From assembly GCA_963707015.1 (NCBI GenBank), contig CAVPOO010000009.1, forward strand, positions 1-24,000: 24,000 bases of DNA. The letters run 5' to 3'. Position 1 is the first letter of the stretch, and each line of letters opens with the position of its first letter. The notes below the pieces were generated by a model. The model saw only the letters and a list, made by a program, of their open reading frames with translations, made no database searches and was not told the DNA's origin. Source of the DNA: an uncultured Gammaproteobacteria bacterium (GTDB lineage: Bacteria; Pseudomonadota; Gammaproteobacteria; Thiohalobacterales; Thiohalobacteraceae). Both the position numbers and the translations under genes were made by a program. Positions 1 through 17,543 of this stretch are shown piece after piece.

Positions 1-12
1 GGCTGTCTCTCA

Positions 13-3000: not shown

Positions 3001-3038
3001 GGTTGGTTTGCCGCCCCCCGTCTTCCACTGATCACTGA
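13..3038 (+). pseudogene. DGR target 1: NLR-like STAND protein (N-terminal TIR-like/DUF4062-like domain, NACHT P-loop NTPase, C-terminal FGE-sulfatase/C-type-lectin-fold domain carrying VR1), broken by three frameshifts
   Basis: The N-terminus VIQVFVGSPGDVAEER...DIAVFIFWKRVGTP resembles Rossmann/TIR-like domains fused to STAND NTPases (assignment from memory). Walker A is GDPGSGKST (nt 874-900) and Walker B is LLLLLDGVDEV. The NACHT-typical EFYHQDFRDYLAA motif appears only in frame 2 after ~1885. GVGLDAQGRPGIVWLPVP appears only in frame 1, and the FGE domain (FYIAQYPVTQAQF...MAGNVWEW...RGGSW...GFRLVCRP) only in frame 3, ending at the stop at 3036-3038. The GTG start at 13 is uncertain because the frame is open to the window edge. 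Confidence 0.8.
2904..3019 (+). repeat. DGR variable repeat VR1 (3' end of target 1)
   Basis: Colinear with the reverse complement of 8452-8568. By hand alignment, 21 of 29 TR adenines in the central tract are substituted and no C/G/T positions in that tract are changed. The A-free 3' segment TCGGTTTTCGGTTGGTTTGCCGCCC is identical to TR. Confidence 0.9.
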
Positions 3039-3061
3039 ATCCTGAGTGCTGTTCACTGATC
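3030..3061. other. Imperfect hairpin just downstream of VR1 (GATCACTGAA / 12-nt loop / TTCACTGATC, one C-C mismatch), conserved downstream of VR2 at 8720-8751
   Basis: The arm sequences are identical at both VR flanks and the loops differ at 3 positions. The hairpin overlaps the target 1 stop and the RT stop codon. Confidence 0.35.
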
Positions 3062-3508
3062 GGCCGCGCGCTTGTTGCGTGCGGCCAGGCGCTGGAAAAC
3101 GGTCTTTCGCAGTCCCCAGGTGTCCGCAAACCGGACGTGGTTTACCCAGCCGCTCACTGACGCATCAAGTTCTGCAAAGGTAATTTGCCCCTCGTGCCAG
3201 GCGTCGTAGCGTTGCGCCAGATGGCGGGTCGCATACCGTGCCTTGCGCGCCTTGAGTTTGCGGTGGTCGGGATAGACCACAAAGCCCAACCAGGGCGTCC
3301 CGCAGCCGGTTGGCGCGACCTGGCAGGCGGACTGATGAATGCTCAGTCGATAGCGTGCGAGGCGATCGATGAGGGCTTCTTTCCAGTACCATAGCTGCGT
3401 CTTATCGTCACTGAAAAGCGCGAAGTCATCGACGTAACGCAGGTATGCGCTACAGCCCAGCTCGCGTTTCACGAAGTGATCGAACGGGTCGAGATAGCAG
3501 TTCGACCA
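3053..3508 (-). pseudogene. DGR reverse transcriptase, C-terminal fragment (palm YxDD motif plus thumb)
   Basis: Translation is WSNCYLDPFDHFVKRELGCSAYLRYVDDFALFSDD... through to the stop at 3053-3055. It joins in frame to the N-terminal fragment at 7275-7898 once 3772 nt are removed. Confidence 0.88.
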
Positions 3509-3528
3509 ATATGGCGTGCACTTCATAT

Positions 3529-3564
3529 TGGTCGGTATGTTGGGTTTATGAATATGTGGCGTAC
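3529..3564. repeat. Left terminal inverted repeat of the RIT-like element
   Basis: TGGTCGGTATGTTGGGTTTATGAATATGTGGCGTAC is the reverse complement of 7245-7280 with one mismatch. Confidence 0.9.
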
Positions 3565-3680
3565 GCTACCCATAGACGGCAGCATGCCTTGGGAGATCAA
3601 GTCGTTTTACTTGTGAAGCCGATTGGTTGACTCGACATATTGCTGCCACCTTTTGAACGGTGAACGCGAAGGAGGGCAGT

Positions 3681-4925
3681 ATGCCAAAGACTTACTTCAA
3701 GTCCGCCCCTACAGGGCCACACTCTGACACTGAAGCTGCCGGCCATTATCTGGCGGCTTTCCGACAGTGGCTTGAGCAGAGTGGTTACCGGCCGGAAACG
3801 ATACGCGGCCGCTTGCGCGGAGCAGCTCAGTTTGTCACCTGGGCCGAGGGGAGCGGCGAGGCGCTCGCGCAGTTTGACGAGGTGCTCCTTAGCGCCTTCG
3901 GACGATACTTGGCCCACCGCGGCCAGTTGCAGTACCCAAACGGTATCCGCACGGTTCGATTCCTGGGGGCTCGGCTCTTTGTCACGTTCTTAGCCGCGCA
4001 GGGGATCACGCCACCGTCGAGCAAGGTTTCGGCCACCCCCTCAATGCCTGGACTACTTGTCAAATTTTGCCACTGGATGCGGACGCAGCGCGGTGTGAGT
4101 GAGCCGACGCTTAGCAACTACACCCCCATCCTGCGGGACTTGCTGGAGACCCTCGGTGACCAAGCCGAGCTGTTCACGGCAAAGCGACTGCGCGAGTTTG
4201 TCCTAAATCACGTACATCGCCATGGCAAAGGCCGAGCGAAGGCGGTAGTCACAGCGGTGCGCATGTTTGCTCGCTTTCTAGGCGTCATCGGCTGGTGCGA
4301 GCCAGGATTGGAGCACGCGATTCCCACCATTGCGGAATGGCGCCTGCGGTCATTGCCGCGTTATCTGCCCACGGCGACGGTCGAGCACATCATTGCCGCT
4401 TGTGACGACACAACGCCTCAGGGTGTCCGCGACAAGGCGATGATCCTGCTGATGGCAAGGCTTGGTTTGAGGGCAGGTGATGTGGCGGGGCTGCGCTTTA
4501 CTGATCTGGACTGGCAAGACGGCACGCTGATGGTCATGGGTAAGAATCGCCGTCAGACACGACTGCCACTGCCGCAAGAGGTCGGCGATGCCCTGCTGCA
4601 CTATCTGGAATCGGCACGGCCAACAACGCCGTGCAAGCACGTGTTTATCACTGCCCGAGCCCCGCTGAAGCCTGTCACCAGACAGGCTGTCGGTCGCACG
4701 GCTGCCCGGGCGATCCAACGCGCTGGCATCGATGCGCCGTCGCTTGGCTCCCATGTCTTGCGCCACTCGGCGGCTACCACCATGCTCCGCCAAGGCGTTT
4801 CCCTGCAAGCAATTGGTGAAGTGTTGCGCCATGCCTCGCCAGAGACCACTGCCCACTACGCTAAAGTCGACCAAGCGCTGCTCAGGCAAGTGGTTGTACC
4901 CTGGCCGGAGGTGACGTCATGTTAA
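3681..4925 (+). CDS. Tyrosine recombinase/integrase, first gene of the trio (RitA position)
   Basis: An AAGGAGGG RBS sits before ATG 3681. Motifs are RLGLRAGDVAGLRFTDLDW and SHVLRHSAATTMLRQG...LRHASPETTAHYAKVD (R..HxxR..Y catalytic signature). Confidence 0.85.
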   Translation: MPKTYFKSAPTGPHSDTEAAGHYLAAFRQWLEQSGYRPETIRGRLRGAAQFVTWAEGSGEALAQFDEVLLSAFGRYLAHRGQLQYPNGIRTVRFLGARLFVTFLAAQGITPPSSKVSATPSMPGLLVKFCHWMRTQRGVSEPTLSNYTPILRDLLETLGDQAELFTAKRLREFVLNHVHRHGKGRAKAVVTAVRMFARFLGVIGWCEPGLEHAIPTIAEWRLRSLPRYLPTATVEHIIAACDDTTPQGVRDKAMILLMARLGLRAGDVAGLRFTDLDWQDGTLMVMGKNRRQTRLPLPQEVGDALLHYLESARPTTPCKHVFITARAPLKPVTRQAVGRTAARAIQRAGIDAPSLGSHVLRHSAATTMLRQGVSLQAIGEVLRHASPETTAHYAKVDQALLRQVVVPWPEVTSC

Positions 4926-5830
4926 TGCAAGCGGTTGAGACCTATCTGGCGGTGCGCCGTGCCGCTGACTTCGAACTCGAGGCGGCGGAGCGGTACTTGC
5001 GGGACTTTGCCCGCTTTGCCGGCGTCCACGGGGACCGCCACGTTTCCGCGAAAACGGCGATCGCGTGGGCCGGACTGGGCTCCTCGGAGATGCAGCGCGG
5101 CAACCGCTTACAGATAGTGATTCGCTTTGCGCGTTTTGCCCACTCCGATGACCCTCGCCACGAAATTCCGCCAGCACGCGTGTTCTGTCGGCGCTACTGT
5201 CGGCCGACGCCCTATATCTTCAGCCGATCAGAAATCGAGACGCTGCTAATCCAGGCCACGCGCTTGGGTTCACCCGGATCTTTTCGCTCGCACATGTACA
5301 CGATCCTTTTCAGTCTGCTGGTTGTTACCGGATTGCGGATCTCCGAGGCCTTGGCTTTGCGCTTCCAAGATGTGACCGAGGATGGTTTGGTGATTCGGCA
5401 GACCAAATTCCGTAAGAGCCGACTCGTGCCGGTGCATGAGACCACCGCTGCCGCGCTTCAGCGCTACTTGGTCAAACGAAACGAGGTGGCGCTTGATGAC
5501 GACCACCTGTTCGTCTCTCGGCAGCGCCACCCATTGAGTCACCACACCGTCCGAAAGACTTTCTATCAACTGTTAGCGGCTGCTGCCATTCCCCGCCGGC
5601 CAGGGGGTCCGCACCCACGGCTAATGGACTTTCGTCATACGTTTGCGACAAACGCGCTAATGACTTGTCCCGATGACCGGGACGCCATTCGCTCCCACAT
5701 GCTGGCGCTAAGCACTTACATGGGGCATGCCCGTGTCAAAAACACCTTCTGGTATCTGCAGAGTACGCCGCAGCTGCTGGGCGATATTGCCAGCGCTTGC
5801 GAGGACCGCCTCGGGAGGACCGACTCATGA
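4919..5830 (+). CDS. Tyrosine recombinase/integrase, second gene of the trio (RitB position)
   Basis: Motifs are VTGLRISEALALRFQDV, DFRHTFATNAL and YMGHARVKNTFWYL. The start codon overlaps the upstream stop. Confidence 0.85.
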   Translation: MLMQAVETYLAVRRAADFELEAAERYLRDFARFAGVHGDRHVSAKTAIAWAGLGSSEMQRGNRLQIVIRFARFAHSDDPRHEIPPARVFCRRYCRPTPYIFSRSEIETLLIQATRLGSPGSFRSHMYTILFSLLVVTGLRISEALALRFQDVTEDGLVIRQTKFRKSRLVPVHETTAAALQRYLVKRNEVALDDDHLFVSRQRHPLSHHTVRKTFYQLLAAAAIPRRPGGPHPRLMDFRHTFATNALMTCPDDRDAIRSHMLALSTYMGHARVKNTFWYLQSTPQLLGDIASACEDRLGRTDS

Positions 5831-7200
5831 CATCGATCGCACCGCACATTTCCGCATTTCTACGCGAGCACCTCCCTGTGCAACAGGGGGCAAGCGCACA
5901 CACTTGTGATAGCTACGCCTATGCGTTTCAGCTGCTGTTTGAATACACCAGCCAGCGCTATCAGGTCACGCCCTCAGCGTTGTACCTGGAGCAAATCGAC
6001 GCCCCGTTGGTGATGGATTTTCTGCACTACCTCGAAACCGAGCGACACAACAGCCCCCAGACCCGAAATGCGCGCTTGGTAGCGATCAAATCCTTCATGC
6101 GCTTTATCGAGCATCGGGTGCCCGCACTGCTAGAACACAGCCGGCGTGTGCTTGCCATTCCTATGAAGCGGACCGATACACGCTTGGTGAATTACTTGTC
6201 GGCGGGGGAAATGCAGGCGATTCTGAACGCGCCCGATCTCCAGAGGCGGGACGGCATCCGCGATCGCGCCATGCTCCATCTCTGCTTTGCCGCCGCTCTG
6301 CGTGTGTCAGAGTTGGTCAGTTTGCAGCTGCCCGCTGTAGAGCTCCATCCAACACCGCTTGTCCGGGTGCAGGGGAAAGGCCGCAGAGAGCGCGCACTTC
6401 CGCTATGGAAACAAACGGCCGTTGATCTGAGCGCCTGGCTGGCGGTGCGCGGCGATGCACCGACACCCGAGCTTTTTCTCAACGCACGTGGTTTGCCGAT
6501 AACCCGCTTCGGCTTCGAGTACATCCTGCGTAAACACGTCCGGGCGGCAGCAATGGGTTGCCCCTCGCTCAACAACAAGCGTATCTCTCCCCACGTGTTG
6601 AGACACTATGTGGCCTCCCGGACTATGTGGGGTAAAGTCTTCACATTCGACGGCAATTCGCAGAATTTCAGTGGATTACCTCTGCAAGCGATGCGTGTGT
6701 AGACGACATAAATTGGTGCGTTTCTCGAGCGCTTCTTCGACACTTGCCCACCGCCCGGAAAGAAGTGAGGTCCAATAGATACGAGATTCATAGGGTTCTG
6801 GACCATCGGCCCTTGTCATCTCGGTGCAACCCTCGGCTTTGTGTCTTCCGAAACAGCGCCGGACTATGTCGCTGCCGCCGAGCGCATTCAGCGGAAAAAC
6901 AGGGTCTGAAACGAAGTACGCTACATAGTCCGGGAGGCCACATAGTGTCTCCTATGTAGCCGGCTACATAGGCGCCACTCAAGCGCCATGCTGGTGCTGC
7001 AGGCCACAGGAGATCTCCGCAAGGTTTCGCTCTGGTTGGGACATGCCAGTATGCAAACTACGGAGATCTACTTGCGTGCAGATCCCACAGAGAAACTTAA
7101 CGCCATTGAAGCGGTACTACCACCGACGCTCAGACGAGGTAAATTCCGGCCACCGGATAAGCTGATCGCCAGCCTAAGGGGGGACACCGAAATATGTTGA
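5827..7200 (+). pseudogene. Tyrosine recombinase, third gene of the trio (RitC position), interrupted by a 372-bp insertion
   Basis: The N-terminal part ends ...ISPHVL at 6600. The C-terminal part resumes at 6973 in the same frame (RHSSAMLVLQATGDLRKVSLWLGHASMQTTEIYLRAD). The intervening 6601-6972 contains stop codons. Removing it gives a 333-aa protein. Confidence 0.85.
6601..6972. mobile_element. MITE-like non-autonomous insertion with 28-bp perfect terminal inverted repeats plus an adjacent 22-bp perfect palindrome
   Basis: AGACACTATGTGGCCTCCCGGACTATGT (6601-6628) is the exact reverse complement of 6923-6950. CCTATGTAGCCGGCTACATAGG (6951-6972) is self-complementary. No convincing ORF lies inside, and the element splits the recombinase HVLRH box. 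Confidence 0.7.
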
Positions 7201-7244
7201 GTCATCGGAGCCGAAATCCCACTGAAACCGGCTCGAACAACAAT

Positions 7245-7280
7245 GTACACCACATATTCATAAACCCAACATACCGACCA
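7245..7280. repeat. Right terminal inverted repeat of the RIT-like element
   Basis: GTACACCACATATTCATAAACCCAACATACCGACCA is the reverse complement of 3529-3564. Confidence 0.9.
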
Positions 7281-7898
7281 GAACTGAGAGGTGAGGTTTC
7301 CGATCGGCAGGCCGCGCGGTCGACACGCGGCCAACAGGTCATCGCCCGGGAACCACCGCATTCGATACTCCTGCTCCAATACACCCTGACCGGATGCGAC
7401 GATTTTTTCAATCAGTGGCGCGACGGAAGCGTCCGGCAGCCTGCGGGTCAGCGTTCGCAGCAGGATCTCGTGGTCGATCGCGGCGAAGTGCTGAACGACG
7501 TCGGCGCGCAGCACATAGGGATAGCGCTGCGCGAAGCGCTGAAATCGATCGATTGCGCGGTGCGTTCCTTTACCGCACCGGTTGGCGAAGCTGTCGTCAA
7601 TGAAGCCGCGTTCGAACAAGGGTTCGATCACGTTACACAGCGCGTGGTGCACCACCCGATCGCGAAACGGTGCGGCGCTGATCTTGCGCCGTTTCGGCTC
7701 CTGAATATGGAAGTGCTTATACCCGCCGGGTAGATAAGTACCGGTTTCCAGTTCAGCCTGCAGGACAAGCAGCTCATCGGCGAGCCTCGCCTCCAGCCGT
7801 GCGGTGCTCGATTTGCCGCGTTTCCCCTTTGCGGCCTTGCGAAAAGCCAGCAGCAGGTTGTCCCATTGAATGACTTGATGCAACAGGGAGTCTGTCAT
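7275..7898 (-). pseudogene. DGR reverse transcriptase, N-terminal fragment (RT motifs 1-4)
   Basis: Translation is MTDSLLHQVIQWDNLLLAFRKA...KRRKISAAPFRDRVVHHAL...LRADVVQHFAAIDH...RGLPIGNLTSQFWS. The (I/L)GxxxSQ motif is the DGR-clade hallmark. The ORF then reads into the RIT inverted repeat. Confidence 0.9.
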
Positions 7899-8259
7899 GG
7901 CCGAGCCACTCGTAATTCAAAGCCGAATGTTCGATCTGTTGGTGTGGTTGTTACCCAAAGCGGAGCAATTCCCCAAGGCCTACCGATTCACGCTGACCCA
8001 CAGACTAATGAATGCCGCCCTGGATCTTCAGGATGCCCTGGCCGAGGCGGAGACCAGCCGTGGCCAAGTCAGGCGTCGGGCGCTGTCAGCCGCGGACCGG
8101 CATCTTGCCCGATTACGGATCTACTTGCGGCTGGCACACCATTGGCAGTGGCTGAGCAGTGGTCAGTATGAACACGTCAGCCGTATGGTGCTGGAAATCG
8201 GGCGCTTGCTCGGCGGCTGGCTGAGAGCCGAGCAGCGGGGGATGGGCGGCTCCGGGTAA
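7897..8259 (+). CDS. avd: Avd-like accessory variability determinant (four-helix-bundle, 23S rRNA IVS protein family)
   Basis: The 120-aa product has ...LLPKAEQFPKAYRFTLTHRL...ADRHLARLRIYLRLAH...LEIGRLLGGWLR, which resembles the bAvd pattern. Its ATG overlaps the RT ATG head-to-head (CATG at 7896-7899). Confidence 0.8.
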   Translation: MAEPLVIQSRMFDLLVWLLPKAEQFPKAYRFTLTHRLMNAALDLQDALAEAETSRGQVRRRALSAADRHLARLRIYLRLAHHWQWLSSGQYEHVSRMVLEIGRLLGGWLRAEQRGMGGSG

Positions 8260-8451
8260 ACAGGACCGAGGGAGCCGCCCGCTTTGCTATGCGCCCGAGG
8301 CAGAACCTGCGGACGGGACACGCCTGCGCCATCTTTCATGATGCCTGCCTCGGCCCGCAACCCGTGAGCGGCGGACATTACCGGAAGCTGTACAGGCTCG
8401 TAAGTCCGTACAGCCCGCCCTGCGATAGGCTGCAGGGCCAGGTGGCGATAG

Positions 8452-8568
8452 ATGTGGGCGGCAAACCAACCGAAAACCGATGTTGTTGTTGCGGTTGTCG
8501 GGGTTGTTCCTGTTGCGATTGGCGGAACGCAGGTTGTCTGGATTGTTGTTCCAGGACCCGCCGCGCAA
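8452..8568 (-). repeat. DGR template repeat (TR)
   Basis: The minus strand reads ...[37 protein letters not shown] with 29 adenines, mostly in AAC codons, in the central tract. It is colinear with VR1 and VR2, and all tract differences fall at these adenines. Confidence 0.9.
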
Positions 8569-8663
8569 AACGCGTCGTGCCAAAAACCAGGCGGCCCCAC
8601 GGTAGGCCCCATCAATGAGGCTTTCCGCGCCATGATGTTGCCGTAGTTTGGCTGATGAGTAAA

Positions 8664-8699
8664 CCAAAAAAATCGCGAGCGGGGCGCTGCGCGCCCCGC
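8664..8699 (-). terminator. Rho-independent-type terminator between target 2/VR2 and TR
   Basis: The GC hairpin GCGGGGCGC-(GCA)-GCGCCCCGC is followed on the minus strand by TCGCGATTTTTTT. Confidence 0.6.
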
Positions 8700-8742
8700 C
8701 ACACGCCGCTGCCGCGGCGTATCAGTGAACAGCAACCAGGGT

Positions 8743-11501
8743 TCAGTGATCAATGGAAGAATGGGGGCGGCAAACCAACCGAAAACCGATGAAGCTGCCG
8801 CGGACGCCGGGGTAGTCCCCGCCGCGAGCGGCGGAACGCAGGAGGTCTGGATCGCCTTCCAGGACCCGCCGCGCCAAACGCGTCGGTCGCAATCGCCGCT
8901 GTCTTCCTCCAGCCAGGCGCGCCCATCCTCGGGTGCATCGGTATAGCTTTCGTGCCAGCAGTCCTCGACCCATTCCCAGACATTGCCCGCCATGTCGTGG
9001 AGGCCGAAGTCATTGGGCGGTGTTTTTCCCACCGGCCAAGTGCGACCTCCACTGTTGTCTGAAAACCACGCGTAATTCTCGGCGGCCGCTTCATCGTTGC
9101 CCCAGTACCAAGGTGTCTCGCTTCTGGCACGCGCGGCGTACTCCCATTCGGCCTCGCTCGGCAGACCGCAGGTGAGCCCGTCGGTTGGGTCTGACAGCGC
9201 TTGTGCATAGGCGCGTGCCTCATCCCAACTCACATTGATGACAGGGCGGTCGCCGCGACCCCAGTTCTCGTCCTCTGGCAGGCGTTCACCTTTGCTGAGC
9301 GCATAGGCATCATATTGGGCGAAGGTGACCTCGTGTTTTGAGATGTAGAATTCCTGCAGGCAGACCTCGTGCGGTGGCTCTTCATCCGGGGCACCGCTAC
9401 CTTTCGGCGAGCCCATTTGGAAGCAGTCGGAAGCTTTGTCAGGGGGAAGCTTGACGAGCGTCGGCCTATCCGGCCAATCGACCAAAAGGCGCCAGTGGAC
9501 GATCACTGTGGACCAATCCGCCTCAGCCGTCGTTGCGTCCCCCTGACGGCGTTTCAGCCACAACGCCCCTTCGGCAAGGAACCCGCCCACCAGCAGCACC
9601 AGCGCCAGCAAGAAGACAGTCAAGCGCAGGTTGCGTTTCTTTTGCGACACGCTGGCATCGAGATAGGCCAGGGTCTCGCTATCAGCTCCGGGACGGTGCG
9701 CCGCGAACTTGCGCAGTTCGCGGCCACGGGCCAGCGGGACGGTGTCCGGGTCCTTATGCCAGGCGCTGGCCTGTTGCTCCAGGCGGGTGCGGGTTGCCAG
9801 GAAATCTGTGTGCTCGATCCGCTTCCAGAGCGTCGGCCAGTAGGGTTCGCCTTTGGGATTGGTACGCAAAAGGGTTTCATGGATCAGGTCCACCTGGTCG
9901 TCGTCCCGGTTCTCGGACTCCGCGGGCGAGATCAGCACCAGGCGCACCGGAGCGCTTTCCTGCGCGCTCTCCTCCGGACCCGGGTGCCCGGAAAGTCGTT
10001 CCAGTATGGCCTCGCCGGGCTCACCGCCACCGGCGCTGGCTACCGCCTGGCGCCGGCTGATGCTGCGGCGGGCGTTGACGGTGTTGATGCCCGGCTCCAC
10101 CAGGGCTAGCAGCAGCCGCAGCGCTGGTTCCTTGCTTTGGTCACCGAGCCGTACCAGCAGACTGTCGGCGCTGCTGGCGAGTGCGCCACCCAGGCCGCCG
10201 ACCGTCTTGTAACGGGCGCGCTGCAGCACGCCGTCCGTGCCGGCGTCGTCGCACAGCAGGCGTAACAGGTTACTGACCAGCGGCAGTGCACCCGGCTCGT
10301 TACGGGCTTCGTCGATGATGTCCTCGGACAGTTGATCATCGCTGTACCGCAGGCCGGCCAGTTCCACGCTGCGCAGCACGATATCGCGCAGGCCGGCCTC
10401 GGTCACGGGCAGCAACTCATAATGGGCAGCGTTGTTGCGCCGTGCGTTCAAGCCGGGTGCGGTCTCGAACTGGCCGAGGAAATCGCTGCGCAGGGTGGTG
10501 ACGAGGTACAGGGGAAGATCATGGTTGTCGATCGCCTCGGCCAGGAGCTGATCGAAGCGTTGCCGCTCGGCTACCTTGTCACGGGTCAGGGTGAAAAGCT
10601 CCTCCAGCTGGTCCACGACCAGCAGCGGGAGCTGTTTCCGGCCTGCCGGCACGCATTCGGCGAACAGATGGGCGAGGCGAAAGTCCGTGTCACGCAGGCG
10701 CTGTTCGATACGCTCCGTCGGTTGCTTGCAGGCTCTGGCCAGGACCGCTGCCAGAGCGAAGAGGGGCGAGCGGCCGGGACGCATGACGCCCAACACCCGC
10801 AGACTTACATCAGTCGCCCCGAGATCGAGCCAGCCATTTTCGAGCGCCGGGATCAAACCGGCCCGGAGCAGGGATGACTTGCCCACACCGCTGTTGCCCT
10901 CGATGCGCAGCCAGCGAATCCGCCCGCCGTCGGCCTGCCGCTGGCTGAACTTGTCCAGCGCCGCGAGCAGATCGGTATGGCGACCGAAGAAAAAGGCCTG
11001 GTGCTCGCGCTCGAACGGTGCAAGACCGGGGAACGGACAGCGCCCCAGCTCGGGTGGCAGTTGCGGCTTACGGTATTCGCGGAACAGATCGGTGCGCAGC
11101 GCCGTGGCCAGCGAGGCGATCTGTGCGGCGTCTCGCGCGTCCTCGAGGCGATGGAACTGGAACAGGCTCAGGAAGGGCGGAACCCGATCATCGGGCGTAT
11201 CGTCCAGCAACACCGGGACGATCGGCAGGCGTGCCCTGGCGCTGCGGCTGAAGTGCCGCGACAAGGCTACACCGACTTCCGCCTGTATCCAGCCCGACAC
11301 GCCCTGCTGGCCGATCAGGACCAGGAAGGCCGCGCAATCTTTCAACTTGGCCTGCAGGACATCCTGCCACTGCGGCCCCAGCGGGATGTCGGCATCCCAC
11401 CACACGGTAAGGCCCGCGCCCTGCAGCGACTCGACAATGGCAGCCGTTGTGCCCTTATCGGCGTGGGCGTAGCTGACGAAGATGCTCGGTGGGGCCGACA
11501 T
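8743..11501 (-). CDS. DGR target 2: TIR domain + P-loop STAND NTPase + single transmembrane helix + FGE-sulfatase/C-type-lectin-fold domain carrying VR2 (frameshifted within VR2)
   Basis: The TIR domain reads IFVSYAHADK...WWDADIPLG...AAFLVLIG. Walker A is EGNSGVGKSS (nt 10875-10898) and Walker B is LLVVDQLEE. The TM helix LRLTVFLLALVLLVGGFLAEGALWL lies at nt 9555-9629. The FGE domain reads FQMGSP...HEVTFAQYDAY...MAGNVWEWVED...RGGSW. After the 1-nt deletion the proper C-terminus [32 protein letters not shown] lies in another frame and ends at 8743. Confidence 0.85.
8761..8876 (-). repeat. DGR variable repeat VR2 (3' end of target 2), with a 1-nt deletion relative to TR
   Basis: By hand alignment, 20 of 29 TR adenines are substituted. 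One base, the C of the first AAC codon, is missing between 8856 and 8857. The IMH-like A-free segment is identical to TR. Confidence 0.9.
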
Positions 11502-12124: not shown

Positions 12125-13138
12125 TTAGCCGAAGGCGCGTGTCACGTCGAACGCCTCCTGTCGCTTGAGCATGTGGTAGCAGGCCCGAGCCAGCTTGTTG
12201 GCGACCGCCTTCTTGGCAACCAGAATGTGGCTTTTTGCCTGCTTACGCTGGTAGTAACGTTTGATCTGTGGACTCCAGATGGCGCCATAATGCGCAGCCT
12301 CCATAAAGGCCCAGGCCAGGTATTTGTTGCCGTTCTTCTTGTTGCCCTGGCCCTTGTACTTGCCGTTGCTAAGTTTCTCGGATTTCACACAACGGGCATA
12401 GGAGGTATAGTGGCCGGGACTGGCAAAGCGTTGGATCGTGCCGGTCTCCAGGGCGATGGTGGATCCCAGGGCGGGGCCCACGCCCGGGATGCTTTGCAGC
12501 AAGCGGTAGCCCTCGCGTGGCGTGAGCTGTTTCTGGAGTTCACGCTCAATCTGGGTAATCGCCTCATCCAGCCAACGCCGGGCCTGGTGCGTAATCTGGC
12601 CACCCAGCAAAATAGGCGCTTCCAGGTAAGTCGCCAGCTGATCGCTCTCGAGCTTTTTGAGCGCATTGGCGCTCAGTCGCACGCCGCTATGGCGCGCAAT
12701 CAAACTTTGCAGGCTCATGTGATGCAGGGTCTTCTGCCTCACCAGCAGCAAACGTCGACGCAGCAAGTCACGCAGTGCACGTTCTTCCTTTGGATAGATA
12801 TACCCGGTCGGCAGAATGCCCAGTCGCAACAGATGGGCTAACTGCCGTGCATCCGAGAAGTCGTTGCTATACTTCAGTCCCGCATACTGGGGCATCGCGC
12901 CCGTATGCGCTAAGTGCACCTGGAAACCGGCGTCCATCAGCCCATCCACCAGCCAATACCAGTTATACGTGGACTCCACCACACACCCCGCCAACTCCGC
13001 CTGATACGTTCGCAACACGCCAATAATTATCGCCAGATCATTGGGTAACCGCTTCTCGTAGATCGTATTATCGTTCTCATCCAATATCGCAACCACGCTA
13101 TTATTGGAATGTAAGTCGATTCCGCAATACAGTGTCAT
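12125..13138 (-). CDS. IS110-family transposase (DEDD recombinase)
   Basis: The product runs from MTLYCGIDLHSNN at the N-terminus to ...LQSIPGVGPALGSTIALETG...RFASPGHYTSYARC...GNKYLAWAF..., the typical IS110/IS1111 family layout. The ORF is an intact 337 aa with an AAGGAG RBS. Confidence 0.9.
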   Translation of the reverse strand: MTLYCGIDLHSNNSVVAILDENDNTIYEKRLPNDLAIIIGVLRTYQAELAGCVVESTYNWYWLVDGLMDAGFQVHLAHTGAMPQYAGLKYSNDFSDARQLAHLLRLGILPTGYIYPKEERALRDLLRRRLLLVRQKTLHHMSLQSLIARHSGVRLSANALKKLESDQLATYLEAPILLGGQITHQARRWLDEAITQIERELQKQLTPREGYRLLQSIPGVGPALGSTIALETGTIQRFASPGHYTSYARCVKSEKLSNGKYKGQGNKKNGNKYLAWAFMEAAHYGAIWSPQIKRYYQRKQAKSHILVAKKAVANKLARACYHMLKRQEAFDVTRAFG

Positions 13139-14871: not shown

Positions 14872-16329
14872 ATGGCTAACAATCATCACGGCATGCTTCC
14901 CTTCAAGGGACTCGGACACTTATGCACAGTGAGTCCGTTTCGCGCGGGTCGTTTTGCCCGTCTGTTTCCAGACTTACCCCCGTTGTATATCGATCCACTG
15001 ATCCTGCATGAGCTCGGTAAGGCGGGCGGTAAAATGGAGGACAAAGGCGCGCCCAATCTCACCAACAACACGCCCACGGGTATGGTCTTCTTTGGGCAAT
15101 TCATCGACCATGACATTACGCTCGACGATAGTTCATCGCTAACAGCCTCCAATGATCCGGCGAGCACAGAAAATGTGCGCACACCGACCCTCGACCTTGA
15201 TTGTGTATATGGCGATGGTCCGGGGGCGCATCCCTACCTTTATGATGGCGCTGGAAAGCTGTTAACCGGCAACGACTACCCGGCGTCACTTATTCCGAAC
15301 TGGCAAAATCAGGATGACCTGCCGAGAACGCCAAAAGGTACAGCGATCATAGGTGACCCGCGCAACGACGAAAACCGCGTTATCTCGCAGCTGCAACTCG
15401 GGGTCTTGCGGTTTCACAATACAGTCGTGGACTTGCTATCTGCAAAGCCAAACCCTCCCTCCGGCTCACAGCTCTTCGAGGAAGCCCGTCAGATCGTAAC
15501 CTGGCATTATCAATGGATTGTGGTAAACGATTTTCTGCGGACGATGTGCGGAAACTGGGTTGTTGACGATATCTTCGCGAATGGCAGAAAGGTATACCGA
15601 CCCGAGTGCATGGGAATCAACGAACCCTTTATTCCCATCGAGTTTGCCACAGCGGTCTATCGCTTCGGCCATACGATGGTTCCTCAGAAATTCAGCGTGA
15701 AGCCAGGCCAGCCAAAACATGACGTATTCGGCTCGACGCTGGGAATCGGATTCAAGCCCGTAACCAGCAGTGACGAGGTTGTGGACTGGGCGGCGCTGCT
15801 GGATAGCGGTAATGGCCAATACGAGCGGGCCGGCAGAATGGACGTGAAACTGGCCAAGCTGCTTCTCGATCTGCCTTTCATGCCCCCGACGGTCCCGGCA
15901 TTTGAACGGTCTCTCGCAGTACGCAACCTGCTCAGGGCACAAAGCTTCCTGATTCCTTCCGGCGAGCAGATTGCGTCCGCCATGATGGCTGCTGGTGCGG
16001 ACGAGATTACTTCGGAGATGATCTCAACAGTTCGTGACGCCGGTGCAAAACTGGGCCTGCCCAAGGCAACCCCGCTATGGCTTTATATCCTTGCTGAAGG
16101 CAAAGCCGTTGGACGCATGGATGAAACCGCACAAGGTCAAAAGAAATTTGCCAAAGGCGAAGGGTTGGGACCGGTCGGCGCGCGTTTTGTAGCAGAGGTC
16201 ATCATCGGGCTTCTCGAACTTGATACGCGCTCTTTCATGGGTTCCAATCGCAATTGGTCGCCGGCCGATGAAGCGGATCTGTTCGGAGGAACCAGCGTAA
16301 CCACGCTCTATCAGCTTCTGACGGCATAA
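14872..16329 (+). CDS. Heme peroxidase (animal-type peroxidase/cyclooxygenase superfamily)
   Basis: Motifs are FFGQFIDHDIT, GDPRNDENRVISQLQL..FHN and AVYRFGHTMV. An AAGGAGAG RBS is present. Confidence 0.85.
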   Translation: MANNHHGMLPFKGLGHLCTVSPFRAGRFARLFPDLPPLYIDPLILHELGKAGGKMEDKGAPNLTNNTPTGMVFFGQFIDHDITLDDSSSLTASNDPASTENVRTPTLDLDCVYGDGPGAHPYLYDGAGKLLTGNDYPASLIPNWQNQDDLPRTPKGTAIIGDPRNDENRVISQLQLGVLRFHNTVVDLLSAKPNPPSGSQLFEEARQIVTWHYQWIVVNDFLRTMCGNWVVDDIFANGRKVYRPECMGINEPFIPIEFATAVYRFGHTMVPQKFSVKPGQPKHDVFGSTLGIGFKPVTSSDEVVDWAALLDSGNGQYERAGRMDVKLAKLLLDLPFMPPTVPAFERSLAVRNLLRAQSFLIPSGEQIASAMMAAGADEITSEMISTVRDAGAKLGLPKATPLWLYILAEGKAVGRMDETAQGQKKFAKGEGLGPVGARFVAEVIIGLLELDTRSFMGSNRNWSPADEADLFGGTSVTTLYQLLTA

Positions 16330-16358
16330 CGCGGCTAACCGCCCAACCAGGCGCTCAA

Positions 16359-16389
16359 CCGGACCTGCGTAAAAGCGGCGCAGGTCCGG
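16359..16389 (+). terminator. 11-bp perfect stem-loop downstream of the peroxidase gene (no U tract)
   Basis: The hairpin is CCGGACCTGCG-(9 nt)-CGCAGGTCCGG. Confidence 0.35.
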
Positions 16390-16513
16390 TCAGCGCCAAG
16401 TTGCGCGGCGCCGAGCCGTACGTGCGCGCGCTATGCTGACAAGGAGGGACGACACGTTTTTTCTGCGGGGACCGGCAAAAGGGAGCGGAGGGAATAGCGA
16501 GGGAAATCAAGCC

Positions 16514-17299
16514 ATGGTTTACCAGACGCCCGGTGTATACATACAGGAGATTTCTGCTTCTCCAGCTTCGGTCGTAGAGGTCGAAACGGCGATTCCCGCC
16601 TTTATCGGTTATACCGAAAAGGCGGAGGAGAATGGGGAGGATCTGACTAACAAACCCAAACGTATCAAGACCCTGGTCGAGTTCGAACAGTTGTTCGGTG
16701 GCCCGGCCCGCCCGAAGACACTCAGGGTGCGGCTCGATGCCGCCAACAGGCCTGACAGGGTGACCGTCGAGCATCACTACGTCTGGAAGGCACCGGCAAA
16801 TATAAGCCTGAATTCGGTCATCTCCCCGACGGTACCCATCAGTGATGCGGACCAACAGAGCCTCAACGTGGATGTGAATGCGGGAAAGTCCATCAACGCG
16901 ATACGCACCATTCCTGGCCGCGGTACGCTCATCTGGGGTGCGCGGACCCTGGCGGGTAACGACAACGAGTGGCGTTATGTCGCGGTGAGGCGTTTCTTCA
17001 ACATGGTGGAAGCGTCTGTCAAGAAATCCACCGCCTGGGTGGTGTTTGAGCCCAACGCGGCACCGCTCTGGACCAAGGTCAAGCACATGATTGAGAACTA
17101 CCTGATCCAGAAATGGCGCGAGGGTGCTCTGATGGGTGCCAAGGCGGAGCATGCCTTCTTCGTGAACATCGGTCTGGGTCAGACCATGACCGCCCAGGAT
17201 ATTGCTGAGGGGCGGATGATAGTGGAGATCGGCATGGCCGCGGTGCGACCGGCCGAATTCATCATCCTGAAGCTCATACACAAGATGCAGAAGTCCTGA
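16514..17299 (+). CDS. Contractile tail sheath family protein, unusually short (261 aa), without neighbouring tail genes
   Basis: The N-terminus MVYQTPGVYIQEISASPASVVEVETAIPAFIGYTEKA and the C-terminus RGTLIWGARTLAGNDNEWRYVAVRRFFNMVEASV...RMIVEIGMAAVRPAEFIILKL are typical sheath N- and C-terminal motifs. Confidence 0.75.
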   Translation: MVYQTPGVYIQEISASPASVVEVETAIPAFIGYTEKAEENGEDLTNKPKRIKTLVEFEQLFGGPARPKTLRVRLDAANRPDRVTVEHHYVWKAPANISLNSVISPTVPISDADQQSLNVDVNAGKSINAIRTIPGRGTLIWGARTLAGNDNEWRYVAVRRFFNMVEASVKKSTAWVVFEPNAAPLWTKVKHMIENYLIQKWREGALMGAKAEHAFFVNIGLGQTMTAQDIAEGRMIVEIGMAAVRPAEFIILKLIHKMQKS

Positions 17300-17357
17300 C
17301 CGGCAGAGTACGAGGGGCAGTGGGAAGCCGCCTGCTGGCGAAGGGATCACAGGGCAC

Positions 17358-17388
17358 TTATGAATAACGTGAGAAGCATCGGGCATAA
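17358..17388 (+). repeat. 31-nt copy of the start of the psiE-like gene (direct repeat of 22517-22547)
   Basis: TTATGAATAACGTGAGAAGCATCGGGCATAA compares with TTATGAATAACGTGAGAAGCATCGGACATAA, a single mismatch. Confidence 0.8.
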
Positions 17389-17412
17389 TAGTCCCTCCGT
17401 CTCCTTTTCACG

Positions 17413-17460
17413 GCTTCGCACCGCCTGGTGGGTTACGCAAAAAACCCTAACTCACCCTAC
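17413..17460. repeat. REP/MITE-like element, partial copy b (right half only)
   Basis: GCTTCGCACCGCCTGGTGGGTTACGCAAAAAACCCTAACTCACCCTAC matches the right halves of copies a and c. Confidence 0.75.
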
Positions 17461-17543
17461 ATTTCGACTTAAGTCAGTGGCATTCGGGGCGGAGGGAATA
17501 AGTCATAAGCCTCTGTCCTTTTTTTAGTTCAAGGAGGTAGGCA

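What the first reader, a model, noticed from the sequence alone, without database searches (positions are those of the whole stretch)
9555..9629. Target 2 has a single TM helix separating the cytoplasmic TIR-NTPase from the variable lectin domain
The only strongly hydrophobic segment of the ~920-aa protein (LRLTVFLLALVLLVGGFLAEGALWL, preceded by KKRN) lies exactly between the STAND module and the FGE/CLec domain. The predicted topology puts TIR and the ATPase inside and the hypervariable domain outside. That would be an outside-in sensor coupling an extracytoplasmic, diversifiable binding site to an NADase-type effector. Target 1 has no such helix and should be fully cytosolic. One DGR would then diversify one surface-exposed and one intracellular receptor.
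Basis: inference. Interest (0 to 1): 0.7.

Follow-up and report, generated by a model that had tools for sequence, protein, structure and literature searches.

The report
Membrane-spanning TIR–STAND receptor, periplasmic variable lectin
The hydrophobic stretch is real and very likely a membrane anchor that puts an NLR-like TIR–ATPase module inside the cell and its retroelement-diversified lectin domain in the periplasm, a layout shared by most close relatives, although this copy and its diversifying machinery are broken.

Summary
Window 9555..9629 (minus strand) encodes aa 625-649, LRLTVFLLALVLLVGGFLAEGALWL, of a 919-aa (repaired) TIR_2–nSTAND1–FGE/CLec protein. It is the only segment with Kyte-Doolittle 19-residue hydropathy above 1.6 (value 2.43).

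The segment sits between the Pfam nSTAND1 match (aa 156-584) and the FGE match (from aa 694). AlphaFold2 models one continuous helix at aa 608-653, followed by a disordered linker.

- **Family conservation:** 58 of 71 nSTAND1–FGE homologs, and 96 of 119 evaluable nSTAND1 cluster representatives, carry a hydrophobic segment at the same position. Its sequence varies, but Arg residues precede it and a conserved Trp ends it.
- **Topology:** N-flank K+R exceeds C-flank K+R in 50 of 57 homologs. This predicts TIR and ATPase inside and the lectin domain outside.
- **Independent support:** a covarying Cys pair is shared with PvdO, which I know as a periplasmic protein, and is absent from all 94 Target-1-type domains.
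- **Target 1:** neither it nor its family has such a helix.

Caveats. "Outside" most likely means periplasmic, not surface-exposed. Target 2 has a 1-nt deletion in its variable repeat (VR), Target 1 has at least 2 frameshifts, and the reverse transcriptase (RT) is split by a 3.8-kb insertion. Doré et al. 2024 already noted cytoplasmic and periplasmic targets within one diversity-generating retroelement (DGR). I rate this a new variant of a known kind, of moderate interest.

The parts
8743..11501 (-). Target 2 coding sequence as repaired (919 aa). As it stands in the window, the ORF reads through to 8163 (1112 aa) because of a 1-nt deletion.
   Evidence: ORF list and translation. Repair and stop position. 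The identical 1112-aa product is in public collections as P0001.
11121..11483 (-). TIR_2 domain (aa 7-127). Glu75 lies in SGWIQAE and aligns with the Glu of AbTIR WTNYEL.
   Evidence: Pfam TIR_2, 68.6 bits against a cut-off of 28. A family profile hits AbTIR NAD+ hydrolase 8g83 and other TIRs. W71 and E75 are invariant in alignment A4.
9750..11036 (-). nSTAND1 NTPase module (aa 156-584). Walker A is GNSGVGKSS; Walker B is VVDQLEE.
   Evidence: Pfam PF20703, E 7.3e-72. G205, G207, K208, S209, S210 and D297, Q298, E300, E301 are invariant in A3. Foldseek matches plant TIR-NLR RPP1 and ORC/Cdc6.
9624..9641 (-). Basic cluster KKRNLR (aa 621-626) on the cytoplasmic side of the helix.
   Evidence: Translation. 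Arg is the commonest residue at alignment columns 618-620 and 622 and common through 624. N-flank K+R exceeds C-flank K+R in 50 of 57 homologs.
9555..9629 (-). The hydrophobic segment of the finding (aa 625-649). The most likely membrane span is aa 627-649, LTVFLLALVLLVGGFLAEGALWL (9555..9623), ending in the conserved W648.
   Evidence: KD19 of 2.43 and Hessa sum of -1.17. Columns are hydrophobic but high in entropy, and W648 is present in 42 of 52 sequences. The position is conserved across homologs.
9543..9680 (-). A single continuous helix (aa 608-653) in the AlphaFold2 model. It runs from the last STAND helix straight through the membrane span and is followed by a low-confidence linker (aa 654-662).
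   Evidence: Model m1ba03b47b0bb: mean pLDDT 88.9, DSSP helix H608-653, pLDDT below 50 at aa 656-659.
8743..9464 (-). FGE-sulfatase / C-type-lectin-fold domain (about aa 680-919 of the repaired protein), predicted to be periplasmic.
   Evidence: Pfam PF03781, 149.5 bits. Foldseek top hits are PvdO 5hha (36% identity), FGEs and Treponema TvpA. phmmer against PDB gives PvdO at 6e-35 and TvpA at 4e-27.
8889..8960 (-). Cys848 (8958..8960) and Cys871 (8889..8891): a covarying cysteine pair and candidate disulfide.
   Evidence: Both Cys are present in 37 of 58 TM-class relatives, none in 17 and only one in 4. They are absent in 93 of 94 Target-1-type domains. Both are aligned in PvdO.
8764..8884 (-). 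Variable repeat VR2, with the 1-nt deletion between 8856 and 8857.
   Evidence: Repeat families D1 and I1. Alignment A1. 21 of 22 mismatches lie at TR adenines, plus 1 gap.
8456..8577 (-). Template repeat (TR). The adenine-bearing sense strand is the minus strand.
7897..8259 (+). bAvd accessory gene, inverted relative to the TR, RT and Target 2.
   Evidence: Pfam bAvd, E 3.5e-20 on the plus-strand translation. In relatives L003 and L035, avd and RT are co-oriented.
7278..7898 (-). DGR reverse transcriptase, N-terminal part (ends ...LTSQFW).
   Evidence: Pfam RVT_1. Junction mapping.
3053..3505 (-). DGR reverse transcriptase, C-terminal part (starts SNCYLD...).
   Evidence: Pfam RVT_1. Junction mapping.
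3506..7277 (+). 3.77-kb insertion that splits the RT. It carries three tyrosine recombinase genes.
   Evidence: Pfam Phage_integrase on all three genes. Junctions.
13..3038 (+). Target 1 (DUF4062-like N-terminus, NACHT, FGE/CLec). It lies in three reading frames, has no hydrophobic helix, and carries VR1 at 2895..3016.
   Evidence: Pfam NACHT and FGE. tblastn with the intact homolog P0125. Hydropathy. VR1 has 23 of 24 mismatches at TR adenines.

Best explanation
Target 2 encodes, or encoded until recently, a single-pass type II inner-membrane receptor.

**Shown by computation.**
- The order of parts is TIR_2 (aa 7-127, with the Glu75 position that aligns with AbTIR's Glu), nSTAND1 NTPase (aa 156-584, with intact Walker A and B), one 23-25-residue hydrophobic helix (aa 625/627-649), an approximately 30-40-residue linker, and an FGE/CLec-fold domain.
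- The last ~40 codons of that domain are a DGR variable repeat.
- The hydrophobic helix is a positionally conserved hallmark of this nSTAND1 subfamily, whatever the C-terminal sensor is (FGE, WD40, TPR).

**Inferred.**
- The helix acts as an internal signal-anchor, so the TIR-ATPase stays in the cytoplasm and the lectin domain is exported to the periplasm.
- The membrane separates sensor and NTPase. The sensor therefore cannot autoinhibit the NOD module by direct contact, as it does in soluble NLR/Avs proteins.
- The most likely mechanism is that ligand binding in the periplasm clusters or reorients the receptors. This signal passes through the rigid STAND-to-TM helix.
- That would license ATP-dependent STAND oligomerisation and TIR-TIR assembly. 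The outcome would be NAD+ cleavage, by depletion or signal production, and growth arrest or death of the invaded cell.
- The DGR supplied an anticipatory repertoire of periplasmic binding sites for Target 2. From the same TR it supplied cytosolic binding sites for the helix-less NACHT-FGE Target 1.

**State in this genome.** The system appears decayed. VR2 has a 1-nt deletion, Target 1 has at least 2 frameshifts, and the RT is split by a recombinase-bearing insertion.
For: - **Hydropathy and position:**
- **Conservation of the feature but not the sequence:** 58 of 71 nSTAND1-FGE and 29 of 42 other nSTAND1 homologs. 96 of 119 evaluable 50%-identity representatives have it a median of 30 residues after the position equivalent to query aa 600 (IQR 26-37). 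Aligned columns 627-649 are hydrophobic with entropy of 2.2-3.4 bits. The boundary Trp is present in 42 of 52 sequences.
- **Orientation:** N-flank K+R averages 4.04 against 1.88 on the C side, with N>C in 50 of 57 FGE-class and 27 of 29 other homologs. The protein starts directly with the TIR strand IFVSYAH, with no signal peptide.
- **Structure:** AF2 pLDDT is 88.9, with one helix at aa 608-653 followed by a disordered linker.
- **Extracytoplasmic character of the sensor:** the closest solved relative is PvdO (36% identity, E 6e-35), whose periplasmic location I take from my own knowledge. It shares both Cys848 and Cys871. The pair covaries (37 both, 17 none, 4 single) in TM-bearing relatives and is absent from all 94 Target-1-type domains, which lack a TM.
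- **Effector and switch look competent:**
- **DGR signature for both VRs:**
- **Literature:** STAND-FGS/CLec proteins with TIR and other effectors are proposed DGR-diversified invader sensors (PMC8195603; PMC10907252). TM-bearing bacterial NACHT proteins have been suggested to sense intramembrane or periplasmic signals (bioRxiv 10.1101/2022.07.19.500537).
Against: - No dedicated topology predictor and no experiment was available. Everything rests on hydropathy scales, flank charges and comparative patterns.
- In this protein the C-side flank is itself basic (KRR). The charge bias is therefore only 4 versus 3, although net charge is +3 versus 0.
- The Cys-pair contrast is between two clades and is not phylogenetically independent. 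Spatial proximity of the two Cys could not be measured, because no model coordinates were available.
- How a STAND NTPase would be activated across a membrane has no experimentally characterised precedent that I could find.
- Kaur et al. 2021 treat STAND-FGS sensors as intracellular.
- About 19% of relatives lack a segment above threshold, though several are borderline at the same site with KD 1.3-1.56.
- The copy in this window carries a frameshift that replaces the last 38 residues of the lectin fold. Its function here is therefore doubtful. The same read-through ORF occurs in a second assembly (P0124).
Confidence: 0.72

Rival explanations
1. The protein is a soluble cytosolic sensor, as STAND-FGS proteins were originally described. 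The hydrophobic helix is a latent effector or anchor that inserts into the membrane only after activation, for example by forming a pore when STAND oligomerisation brings many helices together. The lectin domain would then sense ligands inside the cell.
For: - Kaur et al. 2021 call FGS an intracellular invader-sensing lectin.
- From my own knowledge, membrane-disrupting TM effectors are common in abortive-infection systems.
- The helix is retained with many different N-terminal effectors and C-terminal sensors.
Against: - A uniformly hydrophobic 23-residue helix (KD 2.43) in mid-protein would be captured co-translationally by SRP/Sec. It has no amphipathic face to hide it.
- The positive-inside bias (50 of 57) and the conserved interfacial Trp are signatures of a constitutive span.
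- The Cys pair shared with PvdO argues for an oxidising compartment.
- TIR is already the effector.
Confidence: 0.1
2. The hydrophobic helix is not in a membrane at all. It is a buried structural or coiled-coil element of the STAND oligomer, or a chance hydrophobic run in a Leu/Ala/Val-rich protein.
For: - 0.8% of composition-matched shuffles reach the same hydropathy.
- AF2 models it as a direct continuation of the last STAND helix.
Against: - Positional conservation in about 81% of relatives, together with high sequence entropy, is the opposite of what a packed core helix shows.
- It is flanked by Arg clusters and an aromatic boundary residue.
- Confidence decays along the helix, and it is followed by a disordered linker rather than by packing partners.
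Confidence: 0.05
3. The segment is an internal signal peptide inherited from a secreted FGE protein, and it is cleaved. The lectin domain would be released into the periplasm, and the TIR-STAND part would act independently of it.
For: KKRN followed by a hydrophobic core and a small-residue stretch (AEGA) looks like the n-, h- and c-regions of a Sec signal.
Against: - No AxA-type motif is conserved at the C-terminal end of the segment across the family. Columns 643-647 are variable.
- The fusion in one ORF is conserved in dozens of ~900-aa proteins, which argues for physical coupling.
- From my own knowledge, the hydrophobic core is long (19-23 residues) for a cleaved signal.
Confidence: 0.05
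4. In this genome the feature is a relic. Target 2, Target 1 and the DGR are pseudogenised, so no receptor is made here, whatever the ancestral topology was.
For: - There is a 1-nt deletion in VR2, and a second assembly has the same read-through.
- Target 1 lies in three reading frames.
- The RT is split by a 3.77-kb insertion, and avd is inverted.
- The related locus L081 is also fragmented.
- Transposon-mediated degradation of such DGR loci, coexisting with intact variants, is documented in PB-PSB1 (PMC10907252).
Against: - The first 881 codons of Target 2 are free of stops and highly similar to intact relatives, so any inactivation is recent.
- Frameshifts could be assembly errors or minority variants.
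- This rival concerns present function and does not contradict the topology.
Confidence: 0.6

Closest known systems
STAND NTPase-FGS/CLec conflict systems coupled to DGRs (Kaur et al. 2021, eLife, PMC8195603; DGR clade 5D of Doré et al. 2024, PNAS, PMC10907252)
   Same: - An N-terminal effector (TIR), a central STAND NTPase (nSTAND1 or NACHT) and a C-terminal FGE/CLec domain carrying the VR.
- Two differently built targets per DGR.
- RT and a four-helix Avd nearby.
- Transposon damage to the locus.
   Different: - Those descriptions treat the lectin as an intracellular sensor (Kaur).
- Doré et al. report mixed predicted localisations without describing a span between NTPase and lectin. For PB-PSB1 DGR 3, both NACHT and CLec were predicted to be periplasmic in one target.
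- Here the span lies between the NTPase and the sensor, and it is shown to be a family-wide feature.
Soluble antiviral STAND/NLR-like proteins (Avs, bNACHT) and plant TIR-NLRs such as RPP1
   Same: Tripartite effector, NTPase and sensor logic. The TIR-plus-NOD part of the model matches RPP1 by Foldseek.
   Different: In those proteins the sensor is in the same compartment as the NTPase, and from my own knowledge it regulates the NTPase by direct contact. Here a membrane would separate them. No defence phenotype was tested.
Toll-like receptors (ectodomain, single TM helix, cytoplasmic TIR)
   Same: An extracytoplasmic ligand-binding domain is coupled through one helix to a cytoplasmic TIR domain. 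Activation by ligand-induced clustering is the natural model.
   Different: - The orientation is opposite (type II here, type I in TLRs).
- A STAND ATPase is interposed.
- The TIR is predicted to be an enzyme rather than a scaffold.
- The ectodomain is a hypermutable lectin fold, not LRRs.
- The resemblance is analogy, not homology of the whole architecture.
PvdO and other extracytoplasmic FGE-fold proteins (PorK/GldK lipoproteins, Treponema TvpA)
   Same: These are the closest solved folds and sequences: PvdO at 36% identity (E 6e-35), TvpA at E 4e-27, PorK at about E 4e-18. The Cys pair is shared with PvdO. By inspection and from memory of the motif, there are no Cys at the positions after RGGSW where FGE has its catalytic cysteines.
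   Different: From my own knowledge, those proteins are secreted or lipid-anchored stand-alone proteins without a cytoplasmic signalling module.
Classical cellular DGR targets (Legionella LdtA, Treponema TvpA; membrane-bound target clusters of Roux et al. 2021, PMC8144416)
   Same: A C-terminal CLec-fold VR is displayed outside the cytoplasm. Adenine-specific TR-to-VR differences are present.
   Different: Those targets use an N-terminal signal peptide, lipobox or TM segment and have no cytoplasmic effector. Here the anchor is internal and follows a 620-residue cytoplasmic TIR-ATPase.

Membership tests
DGR variable (target) protein | VR at the 3' end of the gene matching a TR, with differences almost only at TR adenines | tested here: met
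   VR2 versus TR: 21 of 22 mismatches at adenines over 121 nt. VR1: 23 of 24. Repeats located.
DGR variable (target) protein | A cognate DGR reverse transcriptase and accessory Avd in the locus | tested here: inconclusive
   Both are present (Pfam RVT_1 and bAvd). However, the RT is split by a 3.77-kb insertion and avd is inverted relative to TR and RT. Present activity is doubtful.
DGR variable (target) protein | The VR lies in a C-type-lectin/FGE fold | tested here: met
   Pfam FGE-sulfatase, 149.5 bits. Foldseek and phmmer hits to PvdO, FGE and TvpA.
nSTAND1 (PF20703) STAND NTPase | Match to the family model above the curated cut-off, with P-loop and Walker B | tested here: met
   243.5 bits against a cut-off of 27.1. 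GxxGxGKSS and DQxEE are invariant in 52 sequences.
nSTAND1 (PF20703) STAND NTPase | NTP-dependent oligomerisation switch | not testable with these tools
   This needs biochemistry. Only motif conservation was seen.
TIR-domain NADase effector | TIR fold with a conserved Glu at the putative catalytic position | tested here: met
   Pfam TIR_2, 68.6 bits. The family profile hits AbTIR NAD+ hydrolase (E 4e-9), with the query's WxxxE aligned to AbTIR WTNYE. E75 is invariant. That this Glu is the catalytic one is my own recollection.
TIR-domain NADase effector | NAD+ cleavage activity | not testable with these tools
   An enzyme assay is required.
Single-pass (type II, N-in/C-out) membrane protein | One hydrophobic segment of at least 19 residues above TM thresholds, and no other | tested here: met
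   KD19 is 2.43 against a threshold of 1.6, and the next best is 1.27. The Hessa sum is -1.17. AF2 models a helix at aa 608-653.
Single-pass (type II, N-in/C-out) membrane protein | Positive-inside charge bias consistent with N-in | tested here: met
   The family shows 4.04 versus 1.88 K+R, with N>C in 50 of 57. The bias is weak in this protein alone (4 versus 3).
Single-pass (type II, N-in/C-out) membrane protein | Experimentally, or by a dedicated predictor, established topology | not testable with these tools
   DeepTMHMM, Phobius and reporter fusions were not available.
Formylglycine-generating enzyme (catalytic FGE) | The two catalytic cysteines after the RGGS motif | tested here: not met
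The motif positions come from my own knowledge of FGE. The domain is a binding scaffold, not the enzyme.

The most novel reading that the evidence does not exclude
A large branch of the bacterial NLR-like nSTAND1 family consists of transmembrane receptors rather than cytosolic ones. About 80% of the nearest 119 cluster representatives have the span, and the family has more than 20,000 representatives at E<=1e-10. The sensor domain (FGE/CLec, WD40 or TPR) would sit in the periplasm, and the STAND-effector module in the cytoplasm. In the DGR-linked members, the cell would hypermutate a periplasmic antigen-binding site that is wired through one helix to an NAD+-cleaving TIR death effector. That would be a bacterial counterpart of a Toll-like/B-cell-receptor hybrid, able to detect invaders before or while they cross the envelope. 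It would be paired with a cytosolic receptor diversified from the same template.
Probability: 0.4. Interest if true: 0.78.

Novelty: new variant of a known kind. Interest (0 to 1): 0.55.

Why it matters
STAND/NLR-type immune receptors are treated as the archetype of intracellular sensing, and STAND-lectin DGR targets were introduced as intracellular lectins. If the sensor domain of this subfamily is really periplasmic, two consequences follow.

- **Where bacteria look for invaders.** The envelope would be surveyed by anticipatory, hypermutated receptors.
- **How a STAND switch is triggered.** Activation would have to cross a membrane without sensor-NOD contact.

It also makes a concrete experiment possible. 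One could take an intact homolog, map its topology, force periplasmic clustering and read out NAD+ loss. Pairing a membrane-spanning target and a cytosolic target on one template repeat suggests that a single DGR supplies two compartments. This extends the localisation remark made for Thiohalocapsa PB-PSB1.

For this particular window the importance is limited, because the copy is frameshifted and its retroelement is disrupted.

Tried and rejected
1. **Structure prediction of the repaired 919-aa protein.** I modelled aa 1-881 instead, so the last strands of the lectin fold are missing from the model.
2. **Model coordinates.** None are exposed. I could not measure solvent exposure of the helix or the Cys848-Cys871 distance.
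3. **Source organism.**
   - An exact look-up of the 1112-aa product found no gene record.
   - Cluster look-ups gave no names.
   - The genome-collection scan returned only distant relatives, with a best of 34% identity in a Burkholderiales MAG.
   - Contigs carrying the neighbouring peroxidase gene were unnamed metagenome assemblies.
   - The diderm assumption therefore rests on named relatives: Chromatiales, Competibacteraceae, Zoogloea, Nitrospirales, Parabeggiatoa.
4. **phmmer of the TIR domain alone against PDB.** This found nothing. A 12-sequence profile was needed.
5. **Literature search for a PvdO disulfide.** Nothing usable came back.
6. **Searches for prior description.** I looked for a TM segment between nSTAND1 and its sensor and found none. 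The library lacks most subscription journals, so absence is not proof.
7. **Neighbourhoods of intact relatives**. I looked for a complete DGR with one TM-bearing and one TM-less target. The loci found were fragmented, cut by contig ends or lacked an RT within reach, so conservation of the pairing remains untested.
8. **Helical hairpin (re-entrant) reading, considered and rejected.** At 23-25 residues the segment is too short.
9. **N-out orientation, considered and rejected.** It would require exporting a 620-residue TIR-ATPase without a signal peptide and placing an ATPase outside the cytoplasm.


Full report
**1. What is at the coordinates**

The minus-strand ORF 8163..11501 is 1112 codons long. 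Window 9555..9629 on that strand translates to LRLTVFLLALVLLVGGFLAEGALWL, which is residues 625-649. It is preceded by SQKKRN and followed by KRRQGD.

Pfam places three domains on this protein:

| Domain | Residues | Score |
|---|---|---|
| TIR_2 | 7-127 | 68.6 bits |
| nSTAND1 | 156-584 | E 7e-72 |
| FGE-sulfatase | from 694 | E 2e-43 |

The protein reads as 1112 aa rather than about 920. The cause is that the variable repeat lacks one base relative to the template repeat (TCCTGGAA-GGCG against TCCTGGAACAACA), between window 8856 and 8857. Adding one base restores a 919-aa protein. It ends [43 protein letters not shown], with its stop at 8743.

**2. Is the segment more than chance**

- The 19-residue Kyte-Doolittle maximum is 2.43. 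No other window of the real protein exceeds 1.27.
- With the Hessa central-position scale, the best 19-mer sums to -1.17 kcal/mol. The next best segment gives +7.4.
- The protein is rich in Leu, Ala and Val. Even so, only 152 of 20,000 composition-preserving shuffles reach 2.43 anywhere.

The stronger argument is comparative. A search of 5.8 billion proteins returned dozens of ~900-aa TIR_2-nSTAND1-FGE proteins at 30-55% identity. It also returned nSTAND1 proteins with WD40, TPR or kinase modules.

I located the nSTAND1 and FGE matches in each hit and scanned the region between them. 58 of 71 nSTAND1-FGE proteins have a segment with KD19 at or above 1.6. Several of the remaining 13 are borderline (1.3-1.56) at the same site. 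Among nSTAND1 proteins with other C-terminal modules, 29 of 42 also have the segment.

An independent, filter-free HMMER search with the nSTAND1 region alone (aa 151-600) found 20,878 cluster representatives at E<=1e-10. Of the best 150, 119 were long enough to evaluate. In 96 of those, a hydrophobic segment starts a median of 30 residues after the position equivalent to query aa 600 (IQR 26-37).

In the 52-sequence alignment A3, columns 627-649 are hydrophobic on average but highly variable in sequence (2.2-3.4 bits of entropy). They are preceded by Arg-rich columns and end in a Trp present in 42 of 52 sequences. Conserved hydrophobicity with variable sequence, a basic N-flank and an aromatic boundary residue is the classic signature of a membrane span. 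It is not the signature of a packed core helix.

**3. Structure**

AlphaFold2 was run on residues 1-881 with the 52-sequence alignment. It gave mean pLDDT 88.9 and pTM 0.68.

- One uninterrupted helix runs from aa 608 to aa 653. The last STAND helix therefore continues straight into the hydrophobic segment.
- Confidence falls along the helix from 97 to about 70.
- A linker follows with pLDDT below 50 at aa 656-659, then a short helix (aa 663-673), then the lectin domain.

Foldseek against the PDB matched the C-terminal domain to PvdO (36% identity), to formylglycine-generating enzymes and to the Treponema DGR protein TvpA. It matched the N-terminal two-thirds to the plant TIR-NLR RPP1 and to ORC/Cdc6 ATPases.

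**4. Topology**

Several lines point to N-in/C-out.

- **Flank charges.** Across TM-bearing FGE-class homologs, the 15 residues before the span carry a mean of 4.04 K+R, against 1.88 after it. N>C holds in 50 of 57, C>N in 4 and there are 3 ties. The other nSTAND1 architectures behave the same way (27 of 29). In the window's own protein the bias is weak: 4 versus 3 K/R, or net charge +3 versus 0.
- **No signal peptide.** The protein begins directly with the first TIR strand. A 620-residue TIR-ATPase has no evident route across the membrane and no use for ATP or NAD+ outside the cytoplasm.
- **The lectin domain looks extracytoplasmic.** Its closest solved relative by sequence is PvdO (E 6e-35), which I know as a periplasmic protein. 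Next come TvpA and the PorK/GldK lipoproteins.
- **A cysteine pair.** Cys848 and Cys871 are both aligned with cysteines in PvdO.
  - In TM-bearing relatives the two cysteines covary: both in 37, neither in 17, only one in 4.
  - In the 94 FGE domains of the Target-1 family, which has no TM, the pair never occurs.

A covarying cysteine pair restricted to the TM-bearing clade fits a disulfide formed in the periplasm. This contrast is between clades and is not corrected for phylogeny. I also could not measure the Cys-Cys distance, because model coordinates are not exposed.

**5. Target 1**

Target 1 (13..3038, plus strand) matches NACHT and FGE-sulfatase. No frame of 1..3060 reaches KD19 of 1.6. 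The best is 1.55, in an amphipathic ALASEAAAAVLLADCLEIA.

In 120 homologs, the few windows at or above 1.6 lie inside globular domains at scattered positions and contain charged residues. None lies between NACHT and FGE, and the median maximum is 1.33.

**6. The retroelement and the state of the locus**

The TR (8456..8577, sense on the minus strand) matches VR2 (8764..8884, minus) and VR1 (2895..3016, plus). Mismatches fall at TR adenines in 21 of 22 and 23 of 24 cases respectively. One template did diversify both targets.

The locus nevertheless looks inactivated.

- VR2 has the 1-nt deletion. The same 1112-aa read-through product, differing at two residues, occurs in a second assembly (P0124). 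This argues against a simple assembly error.
- Target 1 lies in three frames relative to its intact 82%-identical homolog P0125.
- The reverse transcriptase is split between ...TSQFW and SNCYL... by a 3.77-kb insertion (3506..7277) that encodes three tyrosine recombinases.
- The bAvd gene is on the opposite strand to TR and RT, unlike in relatives L003 and L035.

Doré et al. describe the same kind of transposon damage, coexisting with intact variants, at DGR loci of Thiohalocapsa PB-PSB1 (PMC10907252).

**7. Mechanism**

*Shown by computation:*

- the domain order;
- an intact P-loop (GNSGVGKSS) and Walker B (DQLEE), invariant in 52 sequences;
- a TIR domain whose family profile aligns its invariant WxxxE with WTNYE of the NAD+ hydrolase AbTIR;

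*Inferred:*

- The helix acts as an internal signal-anchor.
- The lectin domain binds a periplasmic ligand through its DGR-varied surface.
- The membrane prevents the sensor from contacting the NOD module. Activation therefore most likely works by ligand-driven clustering or reorientation, passed on through the rigid STAND-to-TM helix.
- That would permit STAND oligomerisation and TIR assembly, with NAD+ cleavage as the output.

In relatives that are proteobacteria or Nitrospirae, the exported domain would be periplasmic rather than exposed on the cell surface.

**8. Rivals**

- A latent membrane-inserting effector helix on an otherwise cytosolic sensor.
- A buried, non-membrane helix.
- A cleaved internal signal peptide.

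All three are disfavoured by the flank-charge bias, the boundary Trp, the sequence variability, the absence of a conserved cleavage motif and the conserved single-ORF fusion.

A fourth reading is that the gene is a relic in this genome. This is likely, but it concerns present function and not architecture.

**9. Relation to what is known**

- The architecture belongs to the STAND-FGS/CLec conflict systems of Kaur et al. 2021. They defined nSTAND1, listed TIR among the N-terminal effectors, noted the DGR linkage and called the lectin an intracellular sensor.
- It also belongs to the two-target STAND DGRs of clade 5D in Doré et al. 2024.
- Doré et al. predicted different localisations for DGR targets. 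[quoted passage not shown]
- The preprint on bacterial NLR-related (NACHT) proteins (bioRxiv 10.1101/2022.07.19.500537) noted NACHT proteins with TM regions that may sense intramembrane or periplasmic signals.
- Roux et al. found most cellular DGR targets to be membrane-bound through N-terminal anchors.

What I did not find in the searchable literature is a description of a single span placed between the NTPase and the sensor as a conserved hallmark of the nSTAND1 branch, with the NTPase inside and the sensor outside.

**10. Verdict**

It comes with corrections:

- the exported domain is most likely periplasmic, not on the cell surface;
- the locus is decayed;
- part of the idea has prior art.

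I rate it a new variant of a known kind, with interest 0.55. The family-level generalisation is the more interesting result, and it is directly testable with reporter fusions on an intact homolog.

Noticed in passing
window 3506..7277 (RT parts at 3053..3505 and 7278..7898, minus strand): The DGR reverse transcriptase is split precisely between ...LTSQFW and SNCYLD... by a 3.77-kb insertion. The insertion carries three consecutive, overlapping tyrosine-recombinase genes (3660-4925, 4919-5830, 5797-6702) and ends in short inverted repeats (TCGGTAT / ATACCGA).
   Followed up: partly
window 7896..8259: The bAvd gene is on the plus strand, so it is inverted relative to the TR, RT and Target 2. Its ATG and the RT's ATG overlap in a CATG palindrome, leaving no intergenic space. 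In related loci L003 and L035, avd and RT are co-oriented. This may be a local inversion.
   Followed up: partly
window 13..3038: Target 1 (NACHT-FGE) lies in three reading frames relative to its intact homolog P0125. The frame switches are near 1880 and between 2350 and 2379. It is a pseudogene or a stretch of assembly errors.
   Followed up: yes
window 8856/8857: There is a one-nucleotide deletion inside VR2, at a run of TR adenines (AACAAC becomes AA-GGC). The same read-through product, with 2 substitutions, occurs in a second assembly (P0124). It may be an error of retrohoming rather than of sequencing.
   Followed up: partly
window 8244..8280: A perfect 10-bp inverted repeat (GGGCGGCTCC ... 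GGAGCCGCCC, 17-nt loop) sits at the 3' end of avd, between avd and the TR.
   Followed up: no
alignment A3 columns for aa 644-648; window 9558..9572: The outer end of the span carries a recurrent acidic or small residue followed by Trp (E-x-x-x-W, often ...ES/GxWW) in many relatives. W648 is present in 42 of 52 sequences. This may be an interfacial or signalling motif.
   Followed up: partly
nSTAND1 homologs P0063, P0066, P0075, P0084, P0086, P0089 and others: nSTAND1 proteins whose C-terminal modules are WD40 propellers, TPR arrays or which carry kinase domains have the same Arg-flanked hydrophobic segment right after the NTPase. If it is a membrane span, those WD40/TPR sensors would also be extracytoplasmic.
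   Followed up: partly
window 12125..13138 (minus): An intact IS110-family transposase gene lies about 600 bp beyond the start of Target 2. It adds to the mobile-element load around the DGR.
   Followed up: no
window 14872..18926: Three genes lie here: an animal-haem-peroxidase-like gene (485 aa), a short tail-sheath C-terminal-domain ORF (16433..17299) and a DUF900-type alpha/beta hydrolase (17544..18926). A DUF900 hydrolase also sits next to TIR genes and a Target-2 homolog in locus L084.
   Followed up: no
proteins P0121 and P0123 (JGI variants of Target 2); locus L081: Close variants of Target 2 in other samples break off after TTLRSD (about aa 340) into unrelated sequence. The 70%-identical locus L081 has the gene in three pieces. 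This gene seems to be disrupted repeatedly.
   Followed up: no
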